From a virus (lineage: Duplodnaviria; Heunggongvirae; Uroviricota; Caudoviricetes), in IMG/VR virus record IMGVR_UViG_3300029184_000028: a DNA stretch of 8,176 nt. One strand, 5' to 3'. Within the stretch, counting starts at the first letter, position 1; each line of letters starts with the position of its first letter. Below the pieces are notes generated by a model. It saw only the letters and a program-made list of their open reading frames with translations. It was not told where the DNA came from and searched no databases. Of the stretch, positions 1 to 8,176 are shown in pieces. Both the position numbers and the translations under genes were made by a program.

Positions 1-145
1 CGGGCCGTCTACGGTTCCACAGGATTCAAAGGAGTGAATGCGACCAATAACTGACTTGGTAGCCCCCGCCGTAGCGGTATTTTCTGTTGTATTACAATTA
101 GTTAAATTACTCATATCGCTTCAATTGGCTCTAGTTAACTCTGGT

Positions 146-1141
146 TTATGGACGCATTATGGACATTCCTGACACCGGGTTAAGAGTCACAGCATCTTGT
201 AAGAAATCCGGTGCAAAGTGTGCGTAGGTCATAGTTTGCTGAATGTTAGAATGACCCAGGATGCGCTGCAATGTGATTATGTTACCTCCATTCATTATAA
301 AATGTGTGGCAAATGTATGCCTCAAAACATGTACTGCTTGTCCGTCAGGTAAATCGGGTTTTACTTCCCTGAGAGCGTTACGCACTTTGTAGTAACTGGC
401 ATTAAAAAGCCTGCCTGAATTTTTGGTCTTGATCCGTTTAATCAGGTCCTGCGAAACGGGAATTGTCCTGCGTTTTCCGTTTTTAGTTTTCATAAACGTA
501 ACCATCTGGTTAATGATGTGTTCAGCTTTTAAATTAGACACTTCACTCCAGCGTCCACCAGTAGAAAGGCAGACCAGAGTTGCATTTAATTCATCACCAT
601 CAAGCATGGATAACAGCCGCGTAATCTCTTCACTGGACAAAAAAGCCATTTCCGTAACAGCTTCACGTAACCGTTTAATCTCACGGAACGGGTTGTGGGA
701 GTGGTATTCACCGGCGTCAATTAACTTGGTGAACATCCCGCTCATTATTGCCAGATGTCGATTTACGCTGGCTGGTTTTAGACCATCGTTCATCATTACA
801 ACGCGATAATCAGTTATCGTTTTCTTTGTTAGCTGGTCAGCTCTGGACACTCCCATTTCTGCAAATTTGGCGATTATTGTCGTTAAACGCCCCCGTTCAA
901 TATCTCCACGCTCATGTGATTTTCCGTGATATATCCACCATCTACCTAACAACTCTGTAAGAGTTCGGCGGTCGGCTGGTTTCTCCAACCACTCTTTGTT
1001 GTGGTAGTTAACCAGTACATGACGTTCGAATGCCTGAGCTTCACCTTTAGTTTTAAATTTCCGCCTGATACGTTTTCCATCTGCACCCTGCGGTCTGACG
1101 TCCACTTCATAACGACCATCATCGAGCTTTTTAATAGACAT
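146..1141 (-). CDS. int: Tyrosine-type site-specific integrase (P2-like Int), 331 aa
   Basis: Full ORF with ATG at 1139-1141 preceded by GGAGG at spacing 5; stop TAA at 146-148. C-terminal tyrosine-recombinase signature is visible: TGGRWSE (box I Arg), HVLRHTFATHF (HxxR) and LGHSNIQQTMTYAHF (catalytic Tyr region). Position next to the repressor matches the P2 int-C arrangement. Confidence 0.92.
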   Translation of the reverse strand: MSIKKLDDGRYEVDVRPQGADGKRIRRKFKTKGEAQAFERHVLVNYHNKEWLEKPADRRTLTELLGRWWIYHGKSHERGDIERGRLTTIIAKFAEMGVSRADQLTKKTITDYRVVMMNDGLKPASVNRHLAIMSGMFTKLIDAGEYHSHNPFREIKRLREAVTEMAFLSSEEITRLLSMLDGDELNATLVCLSTGGRWSEVSNLKAEHIINQMVTFMKTKNGKRRTIPVSQDLIKRIKTKNSGRLFNASYYKVRNALREVKPDLPDGQAVHVLRHTFATHFIMNGGNIITLQRILGHSNIQQTMTYAHFAPDFLQDAVTLNPVSGMSIMRP

Positions 1142-1234
1142 AAAGCCCTCCGATGACGCTGTTTACTTCTACTACTTGAAAATTAATGCAATTTTCTTTC
1201 GTACATTTACTACACACATATGCTGAATAAATCG

Positions 1235-1534
1235 TCAGCCAGTCTTCTGGTCTGAGTGGTGCAAGGTTGTTGAGTCTTGCCCAATGTGTGCGAGAGCCGG
1301 GGCTATTTGTCCAGCTGCTGGATCTGTTTCATCAAACATGAACCAGTCACGATACTTGCGAAAGCGTGGATGCTTAAACAGCTTCATACCTGCTTCCATA
1401 GGCATTTTTGATTTTCCTGATTCATATCCATGATATGTGTAGTAATTAATTCCAATTAATTCAGCAAGTTCCTTAGTTTTAAGGCGTTCGGATTCACGGA
1501 TGAGCTTTAGTTTCTCACTTTGTTTACTTGACAT
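1235..1534 (-). CDS. C: Immunity repressor, P2 C-like small HTH protein (~99 aa from ATG 1532-1534; ORF track uses TTG at 1552)
   Basis: Helix-turn-helix-like segment TKELAELIGINYYTYHGYESGKS near the N-terminus; size close to P2 C (~99 aa); divergent from the early operon and co-oriented with int. GGAG at 1547-1550 (minus strand) lies 12 nt upstream of ATG 1532-1534. C-terminal GQIAPALAH..GQKTG matches my recollection of P2 C, unverified. Confidence 0.7.
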   Translation of the reverse strand: MSSKQSEKLKLIRESERLKTKELAELIGINYYTYHGYESGKSKMPMEAGMKLFKHPRFRKYRDWFMFDETDPAAGQIAPALAHIGQDSTTLHHSDQKTG

Positions 1535-1552
1535 AATTTTGCTAATCTCCAA

Positions 1553-1627
1553 TTATATTGCTACTTGGCAATTTGTGATTCACTCAAAAAGGCTCTAGAT
1601 GGCTCCAGTTGGTGAATCGCAAATCTT
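1553..1627. promoter_or_regulatory. Early developmental switch region between repressor and cox (expected Pe/Pc promoters and operators)
   Basis: 75-bp intergenic region between divergent genes. Contains direct repeats GGCTCTAG (1591-1598) and GGCTCCAG (1601-1608), flanked by an inverted repeat ATTTGTGATTCAC (1571-1583) / GGTGAATCGCAAAT (1611-1624; 12 of 13 complementary). A TATAAT hexamer is present on the minus strand at 1552-1557. Exact promoter assignment is not resolved. Confidence 0.5.
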
Positions 1628-1999
1628 ATGGAGGATAGCAAAGTGACGACAAATGTAGAAATTTCTTGTCCAACTAGCGATGAGGCAAGTTTCGAAAACG
1701 AAGCCAAACGTAAAAGCATTCAGATTTCAGAGCGCCCATCTGATTTGCTGTCGAAAGAAGGGTTTGCTCTTTACATCGGTAAGACACCACGCGCGGTGGC
1801 TGAAATGGCTAAAGCAGGAAAGCTGCCAGCCTTCTACATGACAGACCCATTAAAACCAAGAGGGAAAGCTGAATTATGGGTAAATCGTCGTGAGTGGGAT
1901 AAGTATGCGGCACAACTGGTCGAAGAAGCTCCAACCGAATGGCATGACTGGAAAAATCGCATTAGTTACAGCAAATCAAGACATGGCCGTGCGGCTTAA
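1628..1999 (+). CDS. cox: Cox-like excisionase / early transcriptional regulator (start uncertain: ATG 1628, or GTG 1643 with better RBS)
   Basis: First gene of the rightward operon, opposite the repressor. Contains a putative DNA-binding segment EGFALYIGKTPRAVAEMAKAGKLPAFYMTDP that resembles my recollection of P2 Cox. GGAGG at 1631-1635 sits 7 nt before GTG 1643. Stop TAA at 1997-1999. Confidence 0.55.
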   Translation: MEDSKVTTNVEISCPTSDEASFENEAKRKSIQISERPSDLLSKEGFALYIGKTPRAVAEMAKAGKLPAFYMTDPLKPRGKAELWVNRREWDKYAAQLVEEAPTEWHDWKNRISYSKSRHGRAA

Positions 2000-2009
2000 G
2001 GTGGAAAGG

Positions 2010-2180
2010 ATGAATGAGCCTCGTTGTATTGCTCAGTTATTGCGTAACGAAAGCCCCAGGGCGATTGACTTCACCATCACCCACGGGAAGGGACGCAAGG
2101 GAATCATTATCCGCACCAAAAAACAGAGTCCGTTAAAAAAGGCTCTGACCTTTCTGAAAAGCCGGAGGGTCTGGAAATGA
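2010..2180 (+). CDS. Small hypothetical early protein (~56 aa; P2 orf78 position)
   Basis: In-frame ATG at 2010 (alternative ATG at 1983) following GGTGG at 2000-2004. Stop TGA at 2178-2180 overlaps the ATG of the next gene (ATGA), indicating translational coupling. No recognisable domain. Confidence 0.35.
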   Translation: MNEPRCIAQLLRNESPRAIDFTITHGKGRKGIIIRTKKQSPLKKALTFLKSRRVWK

Positions 2181-2677
2181 CAGTGATGACGCTCAATCTC
2201 GTTGAAAAACAGCCAGCAGCTATGCGCCGGATAATTGGTAAGCATCTGGCCGTCCCTCGCTGGCAGGAGACATGCGATTATTATAATCAGATGATGGAAC
2301 GCGAACGGCTAACGGTTTGCTTCCATGCGCAGTTAAAACAGCGTCACGCAACGATGCGTTTTGAAGAAATGAACGACGTCGAACGTGAACGGCTGGTTTG
2401 CGCAATTGATGAATTGCGTGGGGCATTCTCAAAACGCCGTCAGGTTGGCGCAAGTGAGTATGCATATATTAGTTTTTTAACAGTCAGTCAGCGTCGTACT
2501 TTATTTATGCATGCCGGATTGACTGAAAAAGAATTCAACCAGCCATACTGGCGAATTAATGAAGAATCATGTTACTGGCGTGATGCTTTATTCCGTGCAT
2601 TACGTGAATTATTCAGCCTGTTTGAGTATGCACCGACAATTCTGACGTCGGTAAAACCAGAGCAATATCTGCATTAA
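2177..2677 (+). CDS. B: P2 B-like replication protein (166 aa)
   Basis: ATG 2177 preceded by GGAGGG at 2165-2170 (spacing 6); stop TAA at 2675-2677. Length matches my recollection of P2 B (166 aa) and the gene is in the syntenic position between cox and A. Assignment rests on synteny and size, not on a motif. Confidence 0.6.
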   Translation: MTVMTLNLVEKQPAAMRRIIGKHLAVPRWQETCDYYNQMMERERLTVCFHAQLKQRHATMRFEEMNDVERERLVCAIDELRGAFSKRRQVGASEYAYISFLTVSQRRTLFMHAGLTEKEFNQPYWRINEESCYWRDALFRALRELFSLFEYAPTILTSVKPEQYLH

Positions 2678-2740
2678 ATAATTAACCAGAGTTTTTAACG
2701 TACTTAATCGTGCGGGGCTTCTTTTTGCCTGGAGAAAGTC

Positions 2741-2965
2741 ATGCATACAGTTTCTGAAAACAAGTGCGGTAAATACGCATTACTGCTGCAACAGGCCAGA
2801 GCCGAAGCACAGGCCGACGCAGCGACACGCTTTTCTTCTCATCTTGACGCCATGATTCGCCATATCACAAAGGCGGAGTTATCCCGCGTGGAGATAGTCG
2901 AGCTGCTCAGTCAAGAGTCGGAAAAATTTCACAATATCGGATTGTCTCGCGGGGAGGTGCTTTGA
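2741..2965 (+). CDS. Hypothetical small early protein (74 aa; P2 orf80 position)
   Basis: ATG 2741 preceded by GGAG at 2731-2734 (spacing 6). Stop TGA at 2963-2965 overlaps the next start (TGATG). Confidence 0.6.
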
Positions 2966-3267
2966 TGTCCTGTTCTCATTCAGTTGTATTACTGAATAAC
3001 GCCTTAAAAATCGCCGTTATGAAAAATGGCGATTTGTCTCTTATTCAAATTTGCCTTGATAAAGAAAAACGCGAAATAACTGAGTCTGTTATCGCGATTT
3101 ATCAGAACGAATTAAATCTCCTGTCTGATGTGGTCAATTTACTTGTTAAACGCGCTGTATTCCACAAGCAAATTTCCTCAGTGGATGAACTGACAAAATT
3201 AACGACAGAAATTGCCAGCTATTGCGCTGATGAATTTAAAAAACTTAACGACAAAAGGAGCTGGTAA
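2965..3267 (+). CDS. Hypothetical small early protein (100 aa; P2 orf81 position)
   Basis: ATG 2965 preceded by GGGGAGG at 2951-2957. Stop TAA at 3265-3267 overlaps the next start (TAATG). Codon usage is more AT-rich than its neighbours. Confidence 0.6.
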   Translation: MSCSHSVVLLNNALKIAVMKNGDLSLIQICLDKEKREITESVIAIYQNELNLLSDVVNLLVKRAVFHKQISSVDELTKLTTEIASYCADEFKKLNDKRSW

Positions 3268-3488
3268 TGCCGGACAACGTAGATTTTATTCAGGAACAAC
3301 AGGCTGAATTACTGGAGCGCCAGATTAACGCGGCAAGGGTAAAGCATTGCGGTGTTTCTGCGCTGGTTTGCGAAGAGTGTGACGCGCCAATACCTGCTGC
3401 CCGTCGTGCGNNNNNNNNNNNNNNNNNTTGTGTTTCCTGCCAGTCAGTCTTTGAAGCAAAAAACAAACATTACCGGAGAACGGCATGA
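3267..3488 (+). CDS. TraR/DksA-family C4 zinc-finger protein (73 aa; interrupted by a 17-N run)
   Basis: Paired CxxC motifs (CEEC ... CVSC) with spacing typical of the TraR/DksA C4 zinc finger. ATG 3267 preceded by AGGAG at 3256-3260. Reading frame is continuous across the N-run at 3411-3427. Stop TGA at 3486-3488 overlaps the next ATG. Confidence 0.75.
   Translation: MPDNVDFIQEQQAELLERQINAARVKHCGVSALVCEECDAPIPAARRAXXXXXXCVSCQSVFEAKNKHYRRTA
3411..3427. other. Run of 17 ambiguous bases (N): assembly gap or masked bases
   Basis: Directly visible in the sequence; lies inside the zinc-finger gene between its two CxxC pairs. Confidence 1.
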
Positions 3489-3760
3489 GTATTCGTATTG
3501 AAATTGGCGAACGTTATGTCGTTACCAGTGACAGCTTTCAGTTTATTCTCCACGAGAAAAAGAGAGCTGAAAGCGGTAAAAACGCCGGTCAGGAATGGCT
3601 GGCGGTGGTTGGTTATTACCCGAAATTAAGCCAGCTCGTTTCCGGCCTGATGCATCACGATATTCTGACCGGAAGCGCAAAGTCTTTTGCTGATTTAAAC
3701 GCGCAGGTTGAGCAACTCAGCAAGCGTTGTTCAGAGGCTTTTGGCTCATATGGCCGTTAA
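3485..3760 (+). CDS. Hypothetical small early protein (91 aa; P2 orf83 position)
   Basis: ATG 3485 preceded by GGAG at 3473-3476. Stop TAA at 3758-3760 overlaps the likely start of A. No recognisable motif. Confidence 0.6.
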   Translation: MSIRIEIGERYVVTSDSFQFILHEKKRAESGKNAGQEWLAVVGYYPKLSQLVSGLMHHDILTGSAKSFADLNAQVEQLSKRCSEAFGSYGR

Positions 3761-6056
3761 AGCCTCCGGGCGTTTTGTCCCTCCGTCAGTATTTGCCGCA
3801 GGCACCGGTGAGACGTTTACCGGTGCTTATGCATGGAACGCGCCACGCGAGGCCGTCGGGCGCGAAAGACCCCTTACACGTGACGAGATGCGTCAGGTGC
3901 AAGGTGTTTTATCCACGATTAATCGCCTGCCTTACTTTTTGCGCTCGCTGTTTACTTCACGCTATGACTACATCCGGCGCAATAAAAGCCCGGTGCACGG
4001 GTTTTATTTCCTCACATCCACTTTTCAGCGCCGTTTATGGCCGCGTATTGAGCGCGTGAATCAGCGCCATGAAATGAATACCGACGCGTCGTTGCTGTTT
4101 CTGGCAGAGCGTGACCATTATGCGCGTCTGCCGGGGATGAATGACAAGGAGCTGAAAAAGTTTGCCGCCCGTATCTCATCGCAGCTTTTCATGATGTATG
4201 AGGAACTCTGCGATGCATGGGTTGATGCACATGGCGAGAAAGAATCGCTGTTTACAGATGAGGCGCAGGCGCATCTGTATGGTCATGTTGCTGGCGCTGC
4301 ACGTGCTTTCAATATTTCCCCTCTCTACTGGAAAAAATACCGTAAAGGACAGATGACCACGAGGCAGGCATATTCTGCCATTGCCCGTCTGTTTAACGAT
4401 GAGTGGTGGACTCATCAGCTTAAAGGCCAGCGTATGCGCTGGCATGAGGCGTTACTGATTGCTGTCGGGGAGGTCAATAAAGACCGTTCTCCTTATGCCA
4501 GTAAACACGCCATTCGTGATGTGCGTGCGCGCCGCCAGGCAAATCTGGAATTTCTTAAATCGTGTGACCTTGAAAACAGGGAAACCGGCGAGCGCATCGA
4601 CCTTATCAGTAAGGTGATGGGCAGTATTTCTAATCCTGAAATTCGCCGGATGGAGCTGATGAACACCATTGCCGGTATTGAGCGTTACGCCGCCGCAGAG
4701 GGTGATGTGGGGATGTTTATCACGCTGACCGCGCCGTCAAAGTATCACCCGACTCGTCAGGTCAGAAAAGGCGAAAGTAAAACCGTTAAGCTTAATCACG
4801 GCTGGAACGATGAGGCATTTAATCCAAAGGATGCGCAGCGTTATCTCTGCCGCATCTGGAGCCTGATGCGCACGGCATTCAAGGATAATGATTTACAGGT
4901 CTACGGTTTGCGTGTCGTCGAGCCACACCACGACGGAACGCCGCACTGGCATATGATGCTTTTTTGTAATCCACGCCAGCGTAACCAGATTATCGAAATC
5001 ATGCGTCGCTATGCGCTCAAAGAGGATGGCGACGAAAGAGGAGCCGCGCGAAACCGTTTTCAGGCAAAGCACCTTAACCGGGGCGGTGCTGCGGGATATA
5101 TCGCGAAATACATTTCAAAAAATATCGACGGCTATGCACTAGATGGTCAGCTCGATAACGATACCGGTAAGCCGCTTAAAGATACTGCCGCGGCTGTTAC
5201 CGCATGGGCGTCAACGTGGCGCATCCCGCAATTTAAAACGGTTGGACTGCCGACAATGGGGGCTTACCGTGAACTACGCAAATTGCCTCGCGGCGTCAGT
5301 ATTGCTGATGAGTTTGACGAACGCGTCGAGGCTGCTCGCGCTGCCGCAGACAGTGGTGATTTTGCGTTGTATATCAGCGCGCAGGGTGGGGCAAATGTCC
5401 CGCGCGATTGCCAGACTGTCAGGGTCGCCCGTAGCCCGTCGGATGACGTTAACGAGTACGAGGAAGAAGTCGAGAGAGTGGTCGGCATTTACGCGCCGCA
5501 TCTCGGCGCGCGTCATATTCATATCACCAGAACGACGGACTGGCGCATTGTTCCGAAAGTGCCGGTCGTTGAGCCTTTAACTTTAAAAAGCGGCATCGCC
5601 GCGCCTCGGAGTCCTGTCAATAACTGTGGAAAGCTCACCGGTGGTGATACTTCGTTACCGGCTCCCACACCTTCTGAGCACGCCGCAGCAGTGCTTAATC
5701 TGGTTGATGACGGTGTTATCGAATGGAATGACCCGGAGGTCGTGAGGGCGCTCAGGGGCGCATTAAAACACGGCCTGAGAACACCAAACCGTCAGCAAAG
5801 AAACGGAAGCCCGTTAAAACCGAATGAAATAGCGCCATCGGCCAGGCTGACCCGGTCGGAGCGTATGCAAATTACCCGTATCCGTGTTGACCTTGCTCAG
5901 AACGGCATCTGGCCTCAGCGATGGGAACTTGAGGCGCTGGCGCGTGGCGCGACCGTAAATTATGACGGGAAAAAATTCACGTATCCGGTCACTGATGAGT
6001 GGCCGGGATTCTCAACAGTAATGGAGTGGACATCATGGCAAAAATTCACGAGGTAA
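3750..6056 (+). CDS. A: Replication initiation endonuclease A (HUH-superfamily rolling-circle initiator, ~769 aa from ATG 3750; ORF track starts at TTG 3708)
   Basis: HUH-type metal-binding motif EPHHDGTPHWHMMLF and a paired-tyrosine active site AGYIAKYISKNIDG (Y-x3-Y), as in phiX174 gpA / P2 A nickases. Length is close to P2 A (761 aa) and the gene is last in the early operon. Stop TAA at 6054-6056. Confidence 0.92.
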   Translation: MAVKASGRFVPPSVFAAGTGETFTGAYAWNAPREAVGRERPLTRDEMRQVQGVLSTINRLPYFLRSLFTSRYDYIRRNKSPVHGFYFLTSTFQRRLWPRIERVNQRHEMNTDASLLFLAERDHYARLPGMNDKELKKFAARISSQLFMMYEELCDAWVDAHGEKESLFTDEAQAHLYGHVAGAARAFNISPLYWKKYRKGQMTTRQAYSAIARLFNDEWWTHQLKGQRMRWHEALLIAVGEVNKDRSPYASKHAIRDVRARRQANLEFLKSCDLENRETGERIDLISKVMGSISNPEIRRMELMNTIAGIERYAAAEGDVGMFITLTAPSKYHPTRQVRKGESKTVKLNHGWNDEAFNPKDAQRYLCRIWSLMRTAFKDNDLQVYGLRVVEPHHDGTPHWHMMLFCNPRQRNQIIEIMRRYALKEDGDERGAARNRFQAKHLNRGGAAGYIAKYISKNIDGYALDGQLDNDTGKPLKDTAAAVTAWASTWRIPQFKTVGLPTMGAYRELRKLPRGVSIADEFDERVEAARAAADSGDFALYISAQGGANVPRDCQTVRVARSPSDDVNEYEEEVERVVGIYAPHLGARHIHITRTTDWRIVPKVPVVEPLTLKSGIAAPRSPVNNCGKLTGGDTSLPAPTPSEHAAAVLNLVDDGVIEWNDPEVVRALRGALKHGLRTPNRQQRNGSPLKPNEIAPSARLTRSERMQITRIRVDLAQNGIWPQRWELEALARGATVNYDGKKFTYPVTDEWPGFSTVMEWTSWQKFTR
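5601..5620 (+). other. Putative origin of replication / A-protein nick site inside the A coding sequence
   Basis: Sequence GCGCCTCGGAGTCCTGTCAA matches my recollection of the P2 ori nick region, which is known to lie within gene A. Recalled, not checked against a database. Confidence 0.45.
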
Positions 6057-6487
6057 AGCTTCACGCAAAATATTTCGACCTTGTGCTGGAAGGAAAGAAA
6101 CGTGCAGAGTTTCGGAAAAATGACCGTAATTATGAGCGCGGGGACACGCTGATTTTGCATGAATGGGTGCAGGGTGTGTTTACGGGGCGAAAGGTTGAAG
6201 CCCGGATAACAGATGTTACTGACCTGTCAGACTGGCTGGAAGATTATGTCTTGCTAAGTATTGAGCTGCTTAATACAAGCGCATATGAGATTGTGAACTG
6301 GAAAGAACTTAGTGAGCGTGGTCTGGTATTCAGAATTAATCATGAAATTATGCATCAGCTCGGCCTTGCTGTTATGTATGAACCAGAGACGGGGATGTCT
6401 GGCGGGGCAATGGTTGCCACGGATGGAGCATGGAACTATTCAGATGAACAGATTGAGAGTGCAAAGCAAAACGGGTGGCTTGGATAA
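6035..6487 (+). CDS. DUF3850/ASCH-like protein with unassigned C-terminal extension (~150 aa)
   Basis: ATG 6035 preceded by GGAG at 6023-6026 (spacing 8); overlaps the end of A by 22 nt. N-terminal segment KLHAKYFDLVLEGKKRAEFRKNDRNYERGDTLILHEW resembles the DUF3850/ASCH fold signature. Stop TAA at 6485-6487. Confidence 0.6.
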   Translation: MAKIHEVKLHAKYFDLVLEGKKRAEFRKNDRNYERGDTLILHEWVQGVFTGRKVEARITDVTDLSDWLEDYVLLSIELLNTSAYEIVNWKELSERGLVFRINHEIMHQLGLAVMYEPETGMSGGAMVATDGAWNYSDEQIESAKQNGWLG

Positions 6488-6693
6488 TGCACGGAATACC
6501 AGGCGAGATACCGCAACATAACACTAAAAATATCAAGCTGATGGCTATTGTTCACCGTCTACAGCAGATTATGGTCAACGAAAATCTGACGCCTGACGAG
6601 CTGGTCGGGTGTGCTGAAATAGTCCGGGATAATTACGGGCGGTTTAACTATATCGGTCAGTCCAGAGTTGCGCCACCACCACGCAGACGATAG
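6487..6693 (+). CDS. Small hypothetical protein (68 aa), translationally coupled to the upstream gene
   Basis: ATG 6487 overlaps the upstream stop (TAATG). No RBS of its own and no recognisable motif. Alternative in-frame ATG at 6541. Could be a gene remnant. Confidence 0.3.
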   Translation: MHGIPGEIPQHNTKNIKLMAIVHRLQQIMVNENLTPDELVGCAEIVRDNYGRFNYIGQSRVAPPPRRR

Positions 6694-6766: not shown

Positions 6767-7708
6767 TTAAGTTAATTTTAATGAATGGTACTCTATCGAG
6801 CTGATTGTAGATGCGATATATTTACGATCATTTACAGAGAGTATTGCCGCTAGTAGACGACATACCAGAGCCTGCATTTGTAGCAATATATCGCTACCAT
6901 ATTGACAATCATTGATACTAGAGAAACCAAGCGGTTGCCCATTAAAAATGGCTTCATGAAAATTATCATTGCGTATAACTGAAACATTACATTCATCTGT
7001 TGCCCATGACGGGATTTTTACACCGTAATTTTCGCACATCCAATATACTCTATTTTGATGAGATGGTTTTTTCTCTTTAATGACTTTATCCCTTTCATCC
7101 CATGCTATAGCAAAACAGCAATCAAGAGCCATATAAAGATACTGGAATTTCTCAAAGGAAAGGTATAGTGGGTTATGTGATAGGAATAGGGAGTGTATCA
7201 CCGCAGCTATTCTTTTAATGGAGCGATCATCTTTTTGTTTGTCTTTTATATAGTTAAGTGCTAGCTCTATTACTTCTTTTTCAGAGCATCCAATGAGAAT
7301 AAAGTCAGTTAACTTAGTGGGCTTGATAGTGGTTGCATCAAGAAAACCAGCGTCAGTGGTTGTCAATCTTATACCCTTGAAAAAAGAGAGGCACCACACA
7401 ACAAAGTTGAGAGTTTCTAACGAGGATGTGTTTTTTAATTTTAGTGTGTGCGTTTTGGGCATGCCGAATACTCGGTAACTATAAGGCATTGTGCATGTGT
7501 CACCATTAAGGTTATATACCTTTCGATTCCCAGGGTATATCCAACCATTAACAACGTTTTTATCATTGTTAATACGTTCCACTTTCTCAATAAGACCGGG
7601 TAAAGTACGCAAAGAAAATTGTTCAGTCTCAATGTTAACTTCTACTGGATAGTATCCAAACTCCGAAATAATCTCATTTGGTTGCTGTTCATCAACTTCA
7701 CCTTGCAT
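6767..7708 (-). CDS. Hypothetical 313-aa protein; candidate anti-phage defence / abortive-infection cargo at the P2 variable locus
   Basis: Uninterrupted 942-nt ORF with ATG (7706-7708) preceded by GGAG at spacing 6. Antisense to the early operon and convergent with it. Markedly AT-rich relative to the A gene (by eye, roughly mid-30s % GC against low-to-mid 50s). No TM segment, Walker A or other motif I can assign. Lies in the interval between the replication genes and cos. Confidence 0.8.
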   Translation of the reverse strand: MQGEVDEQQPNEIISEFGYYPVEVNIETEQFSLRTLPGLIEKVERINNDKNVVNGWIYPGNRKVYNLNGDTCTMPYSYRVFGMPKTHTLKLKNTSSLETLNFVVWCLSFFKGIRLTTTDAGFLDATTIKPTKLTDFILIGCSEKEVIELALNYIKDKQKDDRSIKRIAAVIHSLFLSHNPLYLSFEKFQYLYMALDCCFAIAWDERDKVIKEKKPSHQNRVYWMCENYGVKIPSWATDECNVSVIRNDNFHEAIFNGQPLGFSSINDCQYGSDILLQMQALVCRLLAAILSVNDRKYIASTISSIEYHSLKLT

Positions 7709-7730
7709 AACTTTCTCCGTTCAAAAACAG

Positions 7731-7946: not shown

Positions 7947-7965
7947 GGCGAGGCGGGGAAAGCAC
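7947..7965. other. cos site: 19-nt P2/P4-type cohesive end GGCGAGGCGGGGAAAGCAC
   Basis: Exact match to the 19-nt cohesive-end sequence I recall for P2/P4/186. It is flanked on the right by G/T-rich repeats, as expected for a terminase recognition region. Confidence 0.7.
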
Positions 7966-8107: not shown

Positions 8108-8129
8108 AAAAAAGCCGCCCGCAGGCGGC
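8108..8129 (-). terminator. Rho-independent terminator for a leftward late transcript
   Basis: Read on the minus strand: GC stem GCCGCC (8124-8129 complement) / GGCGGC (8114-8119 complement) with a 4-nt loop, followed by a run of six T (plus-strand A-run 8108-8113). Sits just downstream of a minus-strand stop codon at 8135-8137. Confidence 0.7.
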
Positions 8130-8134
8130 GATGT

Positions 8135-8176
8135 TCAGCCGTTGTCAGTGTCCAGTGAGTAGTTTTTAAAGCGGAT
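8135..8176 (-). CDS. 3' end (13 codons + stop) of a leftward late gene continuing beyond the window; by P2 synteny the portal gene Q
   Basis: Minus-strand frame open from the window edge to TGA (complement of 8135-8137), reading ...IRFKNYSLDTDNG*, immediately followed by the intrinsic terminator. Identity as Q is inferred from P2 genome order only. Confidence 0.3.
   Translation of the reverse strand: MRFKNYSLDTDNG

What the first reader, a model, noticed from the sequence alone, without database searches (positions are those of the whole stretch)
6956..6973. HEPN-like R-x4-H motif (RNDNFH) in the C-terminal third of the cargo protein
Residues 246-251 read R-N-D-N-F-H, which fits the Rx4-6H signature of HEPN RNase domains common in abortive-infection and toxin proteins. 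A single short motif like this arises easily by chance, so it is only a hint at a possible RNA-cleaving effector.
Basis: inference. Interest (0 to 1): 0.4.

Follow-up and report, generated by a model that had tools for sequence, protein, structure and literature searches.

The report
Uncharacterised HEPN nuclease, P2 prophage cargo
The short R-N-D-N-F-H motif is the conserved core of a predicted RNA-cutting (HEPN) domain in an unstudied 313-residue protein that P2-like phages carry in their known anti-phage hotspot, so it is a good but untested candidate for a new single-gene phage-defence nuclease.

Summary
The motif is real: RNDNFH is residues 246-251 of a 313-aa ORF (window 6767..7708, minus strand), at 6956..6973. 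As a bare pattern it means little, because half of shuffled versions of this protein contain an Rx4-6H.

- **Conservation.** In 101 full-length homologues, down to 23% identity, only six columns are invariant. Two of them are R246 and H251. N247 is kept in 96 of 101.

The N-terminal alpha/beta domain matches nothing known. No Pfam, NCBIfam or PADLOC model hits the family (PHROG 5937, "ORF313" of phage P2-EC67).

The gene sits between gpA and cos/gpQ, the P2 old/tin defence hotspot. It has low G+C. Elsewhere it lies on islands, plasmids and prophages, with no conserved partner gene.

Best reading: a stand-alone, infection-activated HEPN RNase. It is a new variant of a known kind and is not ApeA, HepS or DARNA. 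Neither defence nor RNase activity has been tested.

The parts
6767..7708 (-). Cargo ORF, 313 aa plus stop. It is called 'ORF313' in phage P2-EC67 and belongs to PHROG 5937.
   Evidence: ORF list and translation. Annotated as a hypothetical protein in E. coli genomes and phages. phrog_5937 E=2e-199. G+C is 36.6% against 53.3% for gpA.
6956..6973 (-). R246-N-D-N-F-H251, the predicted HEPN catalytic motif.
   Evidence: R and H are invariant and N is 96/101 in alignment A2. The motif lies at the end of helix 242-252 in the model.
6815..7282 (-). C-terminal helical HEPN-like domain, residues about 143-298.
7295..7675 (-). N-terminal alpha/beta domain, residues about 12-138, with no recognisable family. 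It is the presumed sensor or regulatory domain. Near-invariant residues are F17, G18, P21, W56, R79, F81, T86, H87, F102, G112, R114, G121 and D135.
7151..7153 (-). E186, an invariant acidic residue in the long helix 184-207. It is a candidate for the conserved HEPN helix-2 acid.
   Evidence: 101/101 in A2 and codon position. The assignment to HEPN helix 2 is inferred from PMC3710099. Spatial proximity to the motif was not measured.
6857..6859 (-). R284, invariant, in the last long helix (274-289).
   Evidence: 101/101 in A2. Its role is unknown.
7715..7718 (-). GGAG Shine-Dalgarno sequence 6 nt upstream of the ATG.
   Evidence: Sequence read directly. The P2-EC67 record annotates a ribosome-binding site at the equivalent position for ORF313.
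7947..7965 (+). 19-nt P2-type cos sequence GGCGAGGCGGGGAAAGCAC. It places the cargo gene in the cos-proximal hotspot.
   Evidence: Exact match with none expected by chance. Its identity as the P2 cohesive end is from my own knowledge. The hotspot is defined as the region between gpA and gpQ next to cos in PMC9122126.
3708..6056 (+). gpA replication endonuclease, the left border of the hotspot.
   Evidence: phrog_91 'nicking at origin of replication', E=0. RefSeq annotation.
8135..8176 (-). 3' end of the portal gene gpQ, the right border of the hotspot. A terminator-like hairpin follows at 8114-8129 (-).
   Evidence: Annotation transferred from NZ_CP200247.1, translation of the end and terminator scan.
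6475..6693 (+). Small ORF (72 aa here; RefSeq or 51 aa) lying tail-to-tail with the cargo gene. It travels with the gene only in closely related P2-like prophages.
   Evidence: phrog_11386. By tblastn it is present only in the window, L001, L002 and L018 among 44 loci. It is therefore not a general partner.

Best explanation
The ORF encodes a two-domain, stand-alone effector. It has a previously undescribed N-terminal alpha/beta domain and a C-terminal HEPN ribonuclease domain. The predicted active site is built from R246, N247 and H251, probably helped by E186.

The gene is an accessory gene (a moron) that P2-like phages carry in their cos-proximal defence hotspot. The same gene is carried by islands, plasmids and transposon-like elements in other Proteobacteria.

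The most likely mode of action is that of other single-protein HEPN defences. The protein is made constitutively and kept inactive. A cue of phage infection is sensed through the N-terminal domain or its interface with HEPN. HEPN domains of two subunits then form a composite, metal-independent RNase site. That site cuts host RNA, most likely tRNA anticodon loops, which stops translation and aborts the infection.

Shown here: the motif, its invariance, the HEPN-like fold, the hotspot location, and the absence of a conserved partner. Inferred: RNase activity, dimerisation, the trigger, the RNA target, and the defence phenotype.
For: - **Motif and conservation.** R246 and H251 are two of only six invariant columns in 101 homologues. 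N247 follows R, as is typical for HEPN (PMC3710099).
- **Position of the motif.** It lies at the end of helix 242-252, before a loop and the last long helix. This is the canonical HEPN position.
- **Locus.** The gene lies between gpA and cos/gpQ of a P2-like prophage. That is where P2 carries old and tin, and where many defence systems were found and validated (PMC9122126).
- **Accessory status.** G+C is 36.6% against 53% for the backbone. The gene is present in only 93 of 5,426 complete E. coli genomes. It is also present in viable P2-like phages.
- **Neighbours elsewhere.** These include Gabija-like OLD+UvrD, type I R-M plus GmrSD, and AbiH plus TIR, reverse transcriptase plus PIN, and CBASS, Dpd and PDC models. 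Integrases, resolvases and conjugation genes are also nearby.
- **Stand-alone.** No neighbour family is shared by more than 5 of 33 loci, and those 5 loci are one shared element. There are no tandem repeats and no Rfam match nearby.
- **Precedents.** ApeA, DARNA and HepS are single-protein HEPN defences that cut tRNA anticodon loops.
Against: - No experiment exists for any member of the family.
- No sequence profile links the family to HEPN. Pfam, NCBIfam and PADLOC give nothing for the window protein or for 101 members. A profile search of PDB sequences gives only weak, unrelated hits.
- The structural alignments were not available. I could not check that R246/H251 superpose on the catalytic R/H of the HEPN hits, or that E186 and R284 lie near them.
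- Some homologues sit among ordinary chromosomal genes, for example in Aeromonas.
- The system was not among those tested in the P2 hotspot study. There it is listed only as 'hypothetical'.
Confidence: 0.6

Rival explanations
1. The HEPN domain is real but serves the phage rather than host defence. It could be an anti-defence enzyme that degrades cyclic-oligonucleotide signals, an RNA-processing factor, or a weapon against satellites or competing prophages only.
For: The gene is phage-borne and lies next to cos. Some HEPN domains are reported to deplete cyclic oligoadenylate signals (DARNA preprint). Hotspot genes can act in competition between P2-like phages.
Against: The same gene is found outside phages, next to restriction and Abi genes on islands and plasmids. 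That pattern fits a host-protecting cargo. No CRISPR type III or CBASS association is consistent across loci.
Confidence: 0.12
2. It is the toxin of a toxin-antitoxin pair whose antitoxin was missed. The antitoxin could be a small protein, a small RNA, or a covalent modification by a host enzyme.
For: Many HEPN toxins are neutralised by partners: HepT by MNT, AbiF by RNA, RnlA by RnlB. A small ORF lies tail-to-tail with the gene in close P2 relatives.
Against: The small ORF is absent from all loci outside close relatives. No neighbour is conserved. There are no tandem repeats of the type III antitoxin kind and no Rfam hit. The neighbour analysis only considered ORFs of at least 90 aa, so very small partners elsewhere are not excluded.
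Confidence: 0.12
3. The domain has a HEPN-like fold but is not an RNase. It could be a ligand- or nucleic-acid-binding module, with the conserved R/H serving binding or structure.
For: Non-catalytic HEPN domains exist, such as those fused to nucleotidyltransferases, MtlR and sacsin. No activity data exist for this family.
Against: Non-catalytic HEPN domains typically lose the Rx4-6H motif (PMC3710099). Here R, N and H are essentially invariant and the motif segment is the most conserved part of the protein.
Confidence: 0.1
4. The motif is a chance occurrence in a protein unrelated to HEPN.
For: Half of shuffled sequences contain an Rx4-6H. No HEPN sequence profile matches.
Confidence: 0.03

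Closest known systems
ApeA (Gao et al. 2020 system; bioRxiv 10.64898/2026.01.26.701840)
   Same: A single-protein defence with a C-terminal HEPN RNase and an N-terminal region of no known homology. It cuts tRNA anticodon loops and is activated through a pocket between HEPN and the N-terminal domain. HEPN_Apea proteins also occur in P2 and P4 hotspots. One homologue of the window protein, P0091, is named 'Apea-like HEPN domain-containing protein' by UniRef.
   Different: ApeA proteins have three domains; in Ec2ApeA the HEPN part spans residues 335-583, with insertions. This protein has 313 aa and two domains. No PADLOC model and no Pfam model, HEPN_Apea included, matches any of 101 members. The UniRef name could not be reproduced.
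HepS (Gifsy-1 prophage, Salmonella; PMC13043305)
   Different: HepS is a solo HEPN domain of under 250 aa with the motif at R100-H105, and it is triggered by the tail-tip protein J. The window protein has an extra 130-residue N-terminal domain, its motif is at 246-251, and it sits in a P2-type phage rather than a lambdoid one. Sequence relatedness was not tested because the HepS sequence was not at hand.
DARNA / PD-T7-3 (bioRxiv 10.64898/2026.02.22.705581)
   Different: The domain order is reversed: an N-terminal HEPN (residues 1-159, R117/H122) and a 300-aa helical C-terminal ssDNA sensor, 456 aa in total, forming dodecamers. No PADLOC hit links the two.
Minimal HEPN toxins (HepT of HepT-MNT, AF0298/UPF0332)
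   Different: They are 120-140 aa proteins paired with an MNT antitoxin. Here there is no MNT or other conserved neighbour, and there is a fused N-terminal domain.
P2 old / tin cassette
   Same: It occupies the same genomic slot, between gpA and cos/gpQ. A DUF3850/ASCH gene directly follows gpA in this window, and the third protein of the cloned old-tin cassette also carries DUF3850. Old was recently described as an abortive tRNase (title and abstract).
   Different: The proteins are unrelated. Old is an ABC ATPase plus TOPRIM protein (abstract).

Membership tests
HEPN superfamily (Anantharaman et al. 2013, PMC3710099) | A conserved Rx4-6H motif with a polar residue (N, D or H) right after R. 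| tested here: met
   R246 is 101/101, N247 is 96/101 and H251 is 101/101. The definition is quoted.
HEPN superfamily | An alpha-helical up-down bundle fold, with the motif at the end of helix 3 before the loop to helix 4. | tested here: met
HEPN superfamily | A conserved acidic residue in helix 2, near the motif. | tested here: inconclusive
   E186 is invariant and lies in the long helix 184-207. Its distance to R246/H251 could not be measured, and the Ex3[KR] pattern is not matched literally.
HEPN superfamily | A match to a curated HEPN sequence profile. | tested here: not met
   No Pfam, NCBIfam or PADLOC HEPN model matches at E<=1 for the window protein. Among 101 members, one has PF18735 at E=0.074. 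HHpred-type profile-profile comparison against Pfam or PDB was not available.
HEPN superfamily | Metal-independent RNase activity from a dimeric composite active site. | not testable with these tools
   This needs biochemistry, or at least a multimer model.
ApeA | A HEPN_Apea domain plus the ApeA N-terminal and Mid domains; HEPN spans residues 335-583 in Ec2ApeA. | tested here: not met
   The protein has 313 aa and two domains. No Pfam or PADLOC hit was found for any of 101 members.
DARNA / PD-T7-3 | An N-terminal HEPN domain plus a C-terminal helical ssDNA-binding domain, 456 aa. | tested here: not met
   The domain order is opposite and the length differs. There is no PADLOC match.
HepS | A solo HEPN protein of under 250 aa with no additional domain. 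| tested here: not met
   An N-terminal domain of about 130 residues is present in all full-length homologues. Direct sequence comparison was not done.
Cargo of the P2 cos-proximal defence hotspot (Rousset et al. 2022) | Located between gpA and gpQ, next to cos, in a P2-like phage, and variable between phages. | tested here: met
   gpA at 3708..6056, cos at 7947..7965 and the gpQ end at 8135..8176. The gene is in 93 of 5,426 E. coli genomes. The 99%-identical WP_032179103 is listed in their Table S5A as 'hypothetical'.
Anti-phage defence system (functional class) | Protection against phage when expressed in a sensitive host. | not testable with these tools
   No report was found. It is not among the systems tested in PMC9122126; their 'Putative HEPN' pFR103 is a different protein.

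The most novel reading that the evidence does not exclude
This is a compact, previously unnamed single-gene abortive-infection system found across Alpha-, Beta- and Gammaproteobacteria (about 650 clusters at 50% identity). Its new N-terminal alpha/beta domain is as conserved as the nuclease, with near-invariant residues such as R79, F81, T86, H87, G112, R114 and G121. Such conservation would fit sensing of an invariant small molecule or nucleic-acid product of infection, as ApeA senses deoxydinucleotides, rather than a fast-evolving phage protein. On this reading the sensor then switches on a HEPN anticodon nuclease.
Probability: 0.3. Interest if true: 0.6.

Novelty: new variant of a known kind. 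Interest (0 to 1): 0.45.

Why it matters
If the prediction holds, a gene labelled 'hypothetical' since 2006 (ORF313 of P2-EC67) becomes a new single-gene HEPN defence family. It is present in about 2% of complete E. coli genomes, in viable P2-like phages of E. coli, Yersinia and Salmonella, and on islands and plasmids across Proteobacteria.

It would add a small, tractable sensor-plus-HEPN architecture to a class (ApeA, DARNA, HepS) in which each member so far has shown a different way of detecting infection. The tests are simple: clone one gene and mutate two residues.

It is not a surprise to a specialist. HEPN effectors in defence hotspots are expected.

Tried and rejected
- **Family libraries.** Pfam, NCBIfam and PADLOC scans of the window protein found no meaningful hit. 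Scans of 27 and 101 homologues found none either. The UniRef label 'Apea-like HEPN' on P0091 could not be reproduced.
- **PDB by sequence.** The single sequence gave nothing. Profile A1 gave the NrdB N-terminus at E about 0.01. That hit disappeared with the broader profile A2, which instead gave a bacterial RyR-domain protein and an RpiB-like protein. I treat all of these as chance-level.
- **Related loci.** The search for related loci with A2 failed because no stretch was conserved enough, so A1 was used.
- **Partner gene or RNA antitoxin.** Neighbour clustering, a small-ORF tblastn, a tandem-repeat search and an Rfam scan were all negative.
- **Alternative architectures.** Longer or shorter homologues look like frameshifts or mis-called starts.
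- **Literature.** No paper mentions the accessions, the PHROG or ORF313 of P2-EC67. The 'Putative HEPN' tested by Rousset et al. is a different protein.

Full report
**Observation**

Window 6956..6973 on the minus strand encodes R-N-D-N-F-H. These are residues 246-251 of a 313-aa ORF at 6767..7708 (-).

The pattern alone is not informative. In 20,000 shuffles of the protein, 50% contained at least one Rx4-6H, and 3% contained the stricter R-[NDH]-x3-H. The protein also has a second Rx5H at 166-172 that is not conserved as a motif.

**The gene and its locus**

The window is the left arm of a P2-like prophage:
- integrase, 146..1141 (-);
- a helix-turn-helix repressor-like gene, and Cox;
- gpA replication endonuclease, 3708..6056 (+);
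- a DUF3850/ASCH protein, 5999..6487 (+);
- a small ORF, 6475..6693 (+);
- the 313-aa gene on the opposite strand;
- the 19-nt P2-type cos sequence, 7947..7965;
- a terminator-like hairpin, and the 3' end of the portal gene gpQ, 8135..8176 (-).

These assignments rest.

The gpA-to-gpQ interval next to cos is the slot where P2 carries old and tin. Rousset et al. showed it to be a hotspot of anti-phage systems (PMC9122126).

The gene has 36.6% G+C against 53.3% for gpA, and a GGAG ribosome-binding site 6 nt upstream of its ATG. It is present in 93 of 5,426 complete E. coli genomes, always on the chromosome. It is also found in viable P2-like phages: Yersinia phages vB_YpM_46 and VB-YPM-4, Escherichia phage vB_EcoM-720R8, a Salmonella phage, and P2-EC67, where it was deposited as 'ORF313'.

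In Rousset's Table S5A the 99%-identical WP_032179103 appears only as 'hypothetical'. The 'Putative HEPN' they did test (pFR103) is a different protein.

**Family and conservation**

The word-indexed search gave 259 homologues, nearly all 305-325 aa and all unnamed. The exhaustive profile search gave 650 clusters at 50% identity, 192 of them below E=1e-30. The family corresponds to phrog_5937, function unknown.

Alignment A2 holds 101 full-length members down to 23% identity. Only six columns are invariant: G112, E186, R246, H251, G261 and R284. N247 (96/101), E252 (95/101), H217, R220 and Y297 are near-invariant. The segment 242-262 is the most conserved part of the protein, at 51% mean pairwise identity against 35-37% for the two domains.

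Among 211 homologues of 270-345 aa, 195 carry RNxxxHE and 13 more carry R-x4-H at the same place. Three lack the motif; the two of these I read, P0215 and P0221, have scrambled, frameshift-like C-termini. I saw one real exception, P0213, with S in place of R. The N after R matches the usual polar residue at that position in HEPN motifs (PMC3710099).

**Fold**

With the 101-sequence alignment the model reached pLDDT 94.6 and pTM 0.92. It shows two parts:
- an N-terminal alpha/beta domain, residues about 12-138;
- a C-terminal helical domain, with helices 143-156, 161-176, 184-207, 217-228, 242-252 and 274-289.

The motif ends helix 242-252. A short hairpin and loop follow before the last long helix. 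This is the position Anantharaman et al. describe for HEPN: the end of helix 3, before the loop to helix 4.

**What did not support it**

No curated sequence model recognises the family. This holds for Pfam, NCBIfam and PADLOC, for the window protein and for 27 and 101 homologues.

One homologue carries the UniRef name 'Apea-like HEPN domain-containing protein'. I could not reproduce any such match.

Profile searches of PDB sequences gave only weak hits that changed with the profile: NrdB N-terminus, an RpiB-like protein, and a bacterial RyR-domain protein. I regard these as chance.

**Context elsewhere**

The same gene sits in varied mobile or defence contexts:
- a P. aeruginosa island next to a Gabija-like OLD-TOPRIM/UvrD pair;
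- in Providencia, next to a type I R-M system and GmrSD, or in an integrase-bounded island with AbiH and a TIR protein;
- a Lysobacter island with a PIN protein and a reverse transcriptase;
- a Tn7-like element in Stenotrophomonas;
- five plasmids;
- plain chromosomal surroundings in Aeromonas.

I scanned 104 neighbouring ORFs from 19 further loci. PADLOC hits included PDC-S49, PDC-M06B, CBASS JAB/E1-E2/NucC and Dpd proteins. Pfam hits were rich in resolvases, integrases, and phage and conjugation genes.

Clustering all neighbours (ORFs of at least 90 aa) within 5 kb in 33 loci found no family shared by more than five loci, and those five loci are one shared element. The small ORF tail-to-tail with the gene occurs only in close P2 relatives. 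There are no tandem repeats and no Rfam match. The gene therefore behaves as a stand-alone, horizontally mobile accessory gene.

**Mechanism (inferred)**

By analogy with ApeA, DARNA and HepS, I propose the following. Those three are single-protein HEPN defences that stay inactive until infection and then cut tRNA anticodon loops.
- The protein is an infection-activated RNase.
- HEPN domains of two subunits pair to form the composite R/H site.
- The N-terminal domain, or its interface with HEPN, holds the enzyme off and senses the trigger.
- Cleavage of tRNA or other RNA arrests translation and aborts infection.

The N-terminal domain is as conserved as the nuclease. That fits a conserved ligand better than a fast-evolving phage protein, but this is speculation.

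**Comparison and novelty**

The protein works like the known single-protein HEPN defences but is not a member of any of them.
- ApeA proteins have three domains (HEPN at residues 335-583 in Ec2ApeA) and a HEPN_Apea signature.
- DARNA has the opposite domain order.
- HepS is a solo HEPN of under 250 aa.

It is best filed as a new variant of a known kind: an uncharacterised family with a HEPN effector and a novel N-terminal domain.

**Verdict**

Interest is moderate because the result is expected for this hotspot, yet it gives a clean, easily testable candidate.

**Caveats**

There are no functional data. The HEPN assignment rests on a predicted structure plus an invariant motif, without profile-level sequence support.

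Noticed in passing
window 3411..3427: A run of 17 N (masked or unknown bases) lies inside the TraR/DksA-type zinc-finger ORF at 3267..3488. It appears as XXXXXX in the translation.
   Followed up: no
window 6475..6693 (+); L002 5033..5188; L018 7049..7225: A small ORF (phrog_11386, 51-72 aa depending on the start) lies tail-to-tail with the cargo gene. It travels with the gene only in closely related P2-like prophages. RefSeq names one copy 'meiotically up-regulated 80 protein', which looks like a spurious name transfer.
   Followed up: partly
window 5999..6487 (+): A DUF3850/ASCH-like putative RNA-binding protein (phrog_1812, phrog_986) overlaps the end of gpA. The third protein of the cloned P2 old-tin cassette also carries DUF3850, and DUF3850/ASCH recurs in Rousset's table of P2 hotspot arrangements. 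It seems to be a semi-constant first gene of the hotspot.
   Followed up: partly
L044 (NZ_CP027459.1), locus 3373..4800; also H4-H7: In E. coli strain 90-3040 an IS2 element is inserted in the 5' part of the cargo gene, leaving a truncated 200-aa annotated ORF. Related strains carry IS2 in the same hotspot. This could be natural inactivation of a possibly costly gene.
   Followed up: partly
L022 7089..7700, L026 5232..5858, L028 7122..7733: Three Pseudomonas loci share an ORF of about 205 aa directly next to the homologue (71-156 bp away, same strand). It is downstream in two loci and upstream in one. It has not been identified.
   Followed up: no
protein residues ~240-280 and ~14-70: Family profiles give weak matches to three unrelated PDB sequences. 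These are the N-terminus of E. coli NrdB (E about 0.01, profile A1 only), an RpiB-like isomerase (E 0.02), and a Bacteroides RyR-domain protein (E 0.15-0.5; shared pattern Y-x-P ... GW-x-Y). They are probably chance. The RyR-like pattern in the N-terminal domain might deserve a structural check.
   Followed up: partly
P0213 (homologue, 363 aa): This was the only apparently intact homologue seen without the arginine: SSDTFHE instead of RNDxxHE. It could be a degenerate or regulatory copy.
   Followed up: no
L001 (NZ_CP200247.1): In the best-matching genome, strain Yu5, gpA and many P2 structural genes are annotated as frameshifted pseudogenes. In the window gpA is intact at 782 aa. This likely reflects assembly errors rather than prophage decay.
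   Followed up: no
L023, L024, L025, L027, L036: Xanthomonas, Achromobacter, Albidiferax and Thauera carry the homologue in what looks like the same integrative element. It has an integrase and small ORFs upstream and two conserved genes of about 420 and 610 aa downstream on the opposite strand. This suggests recent transfer between genera.
   Followed up: no
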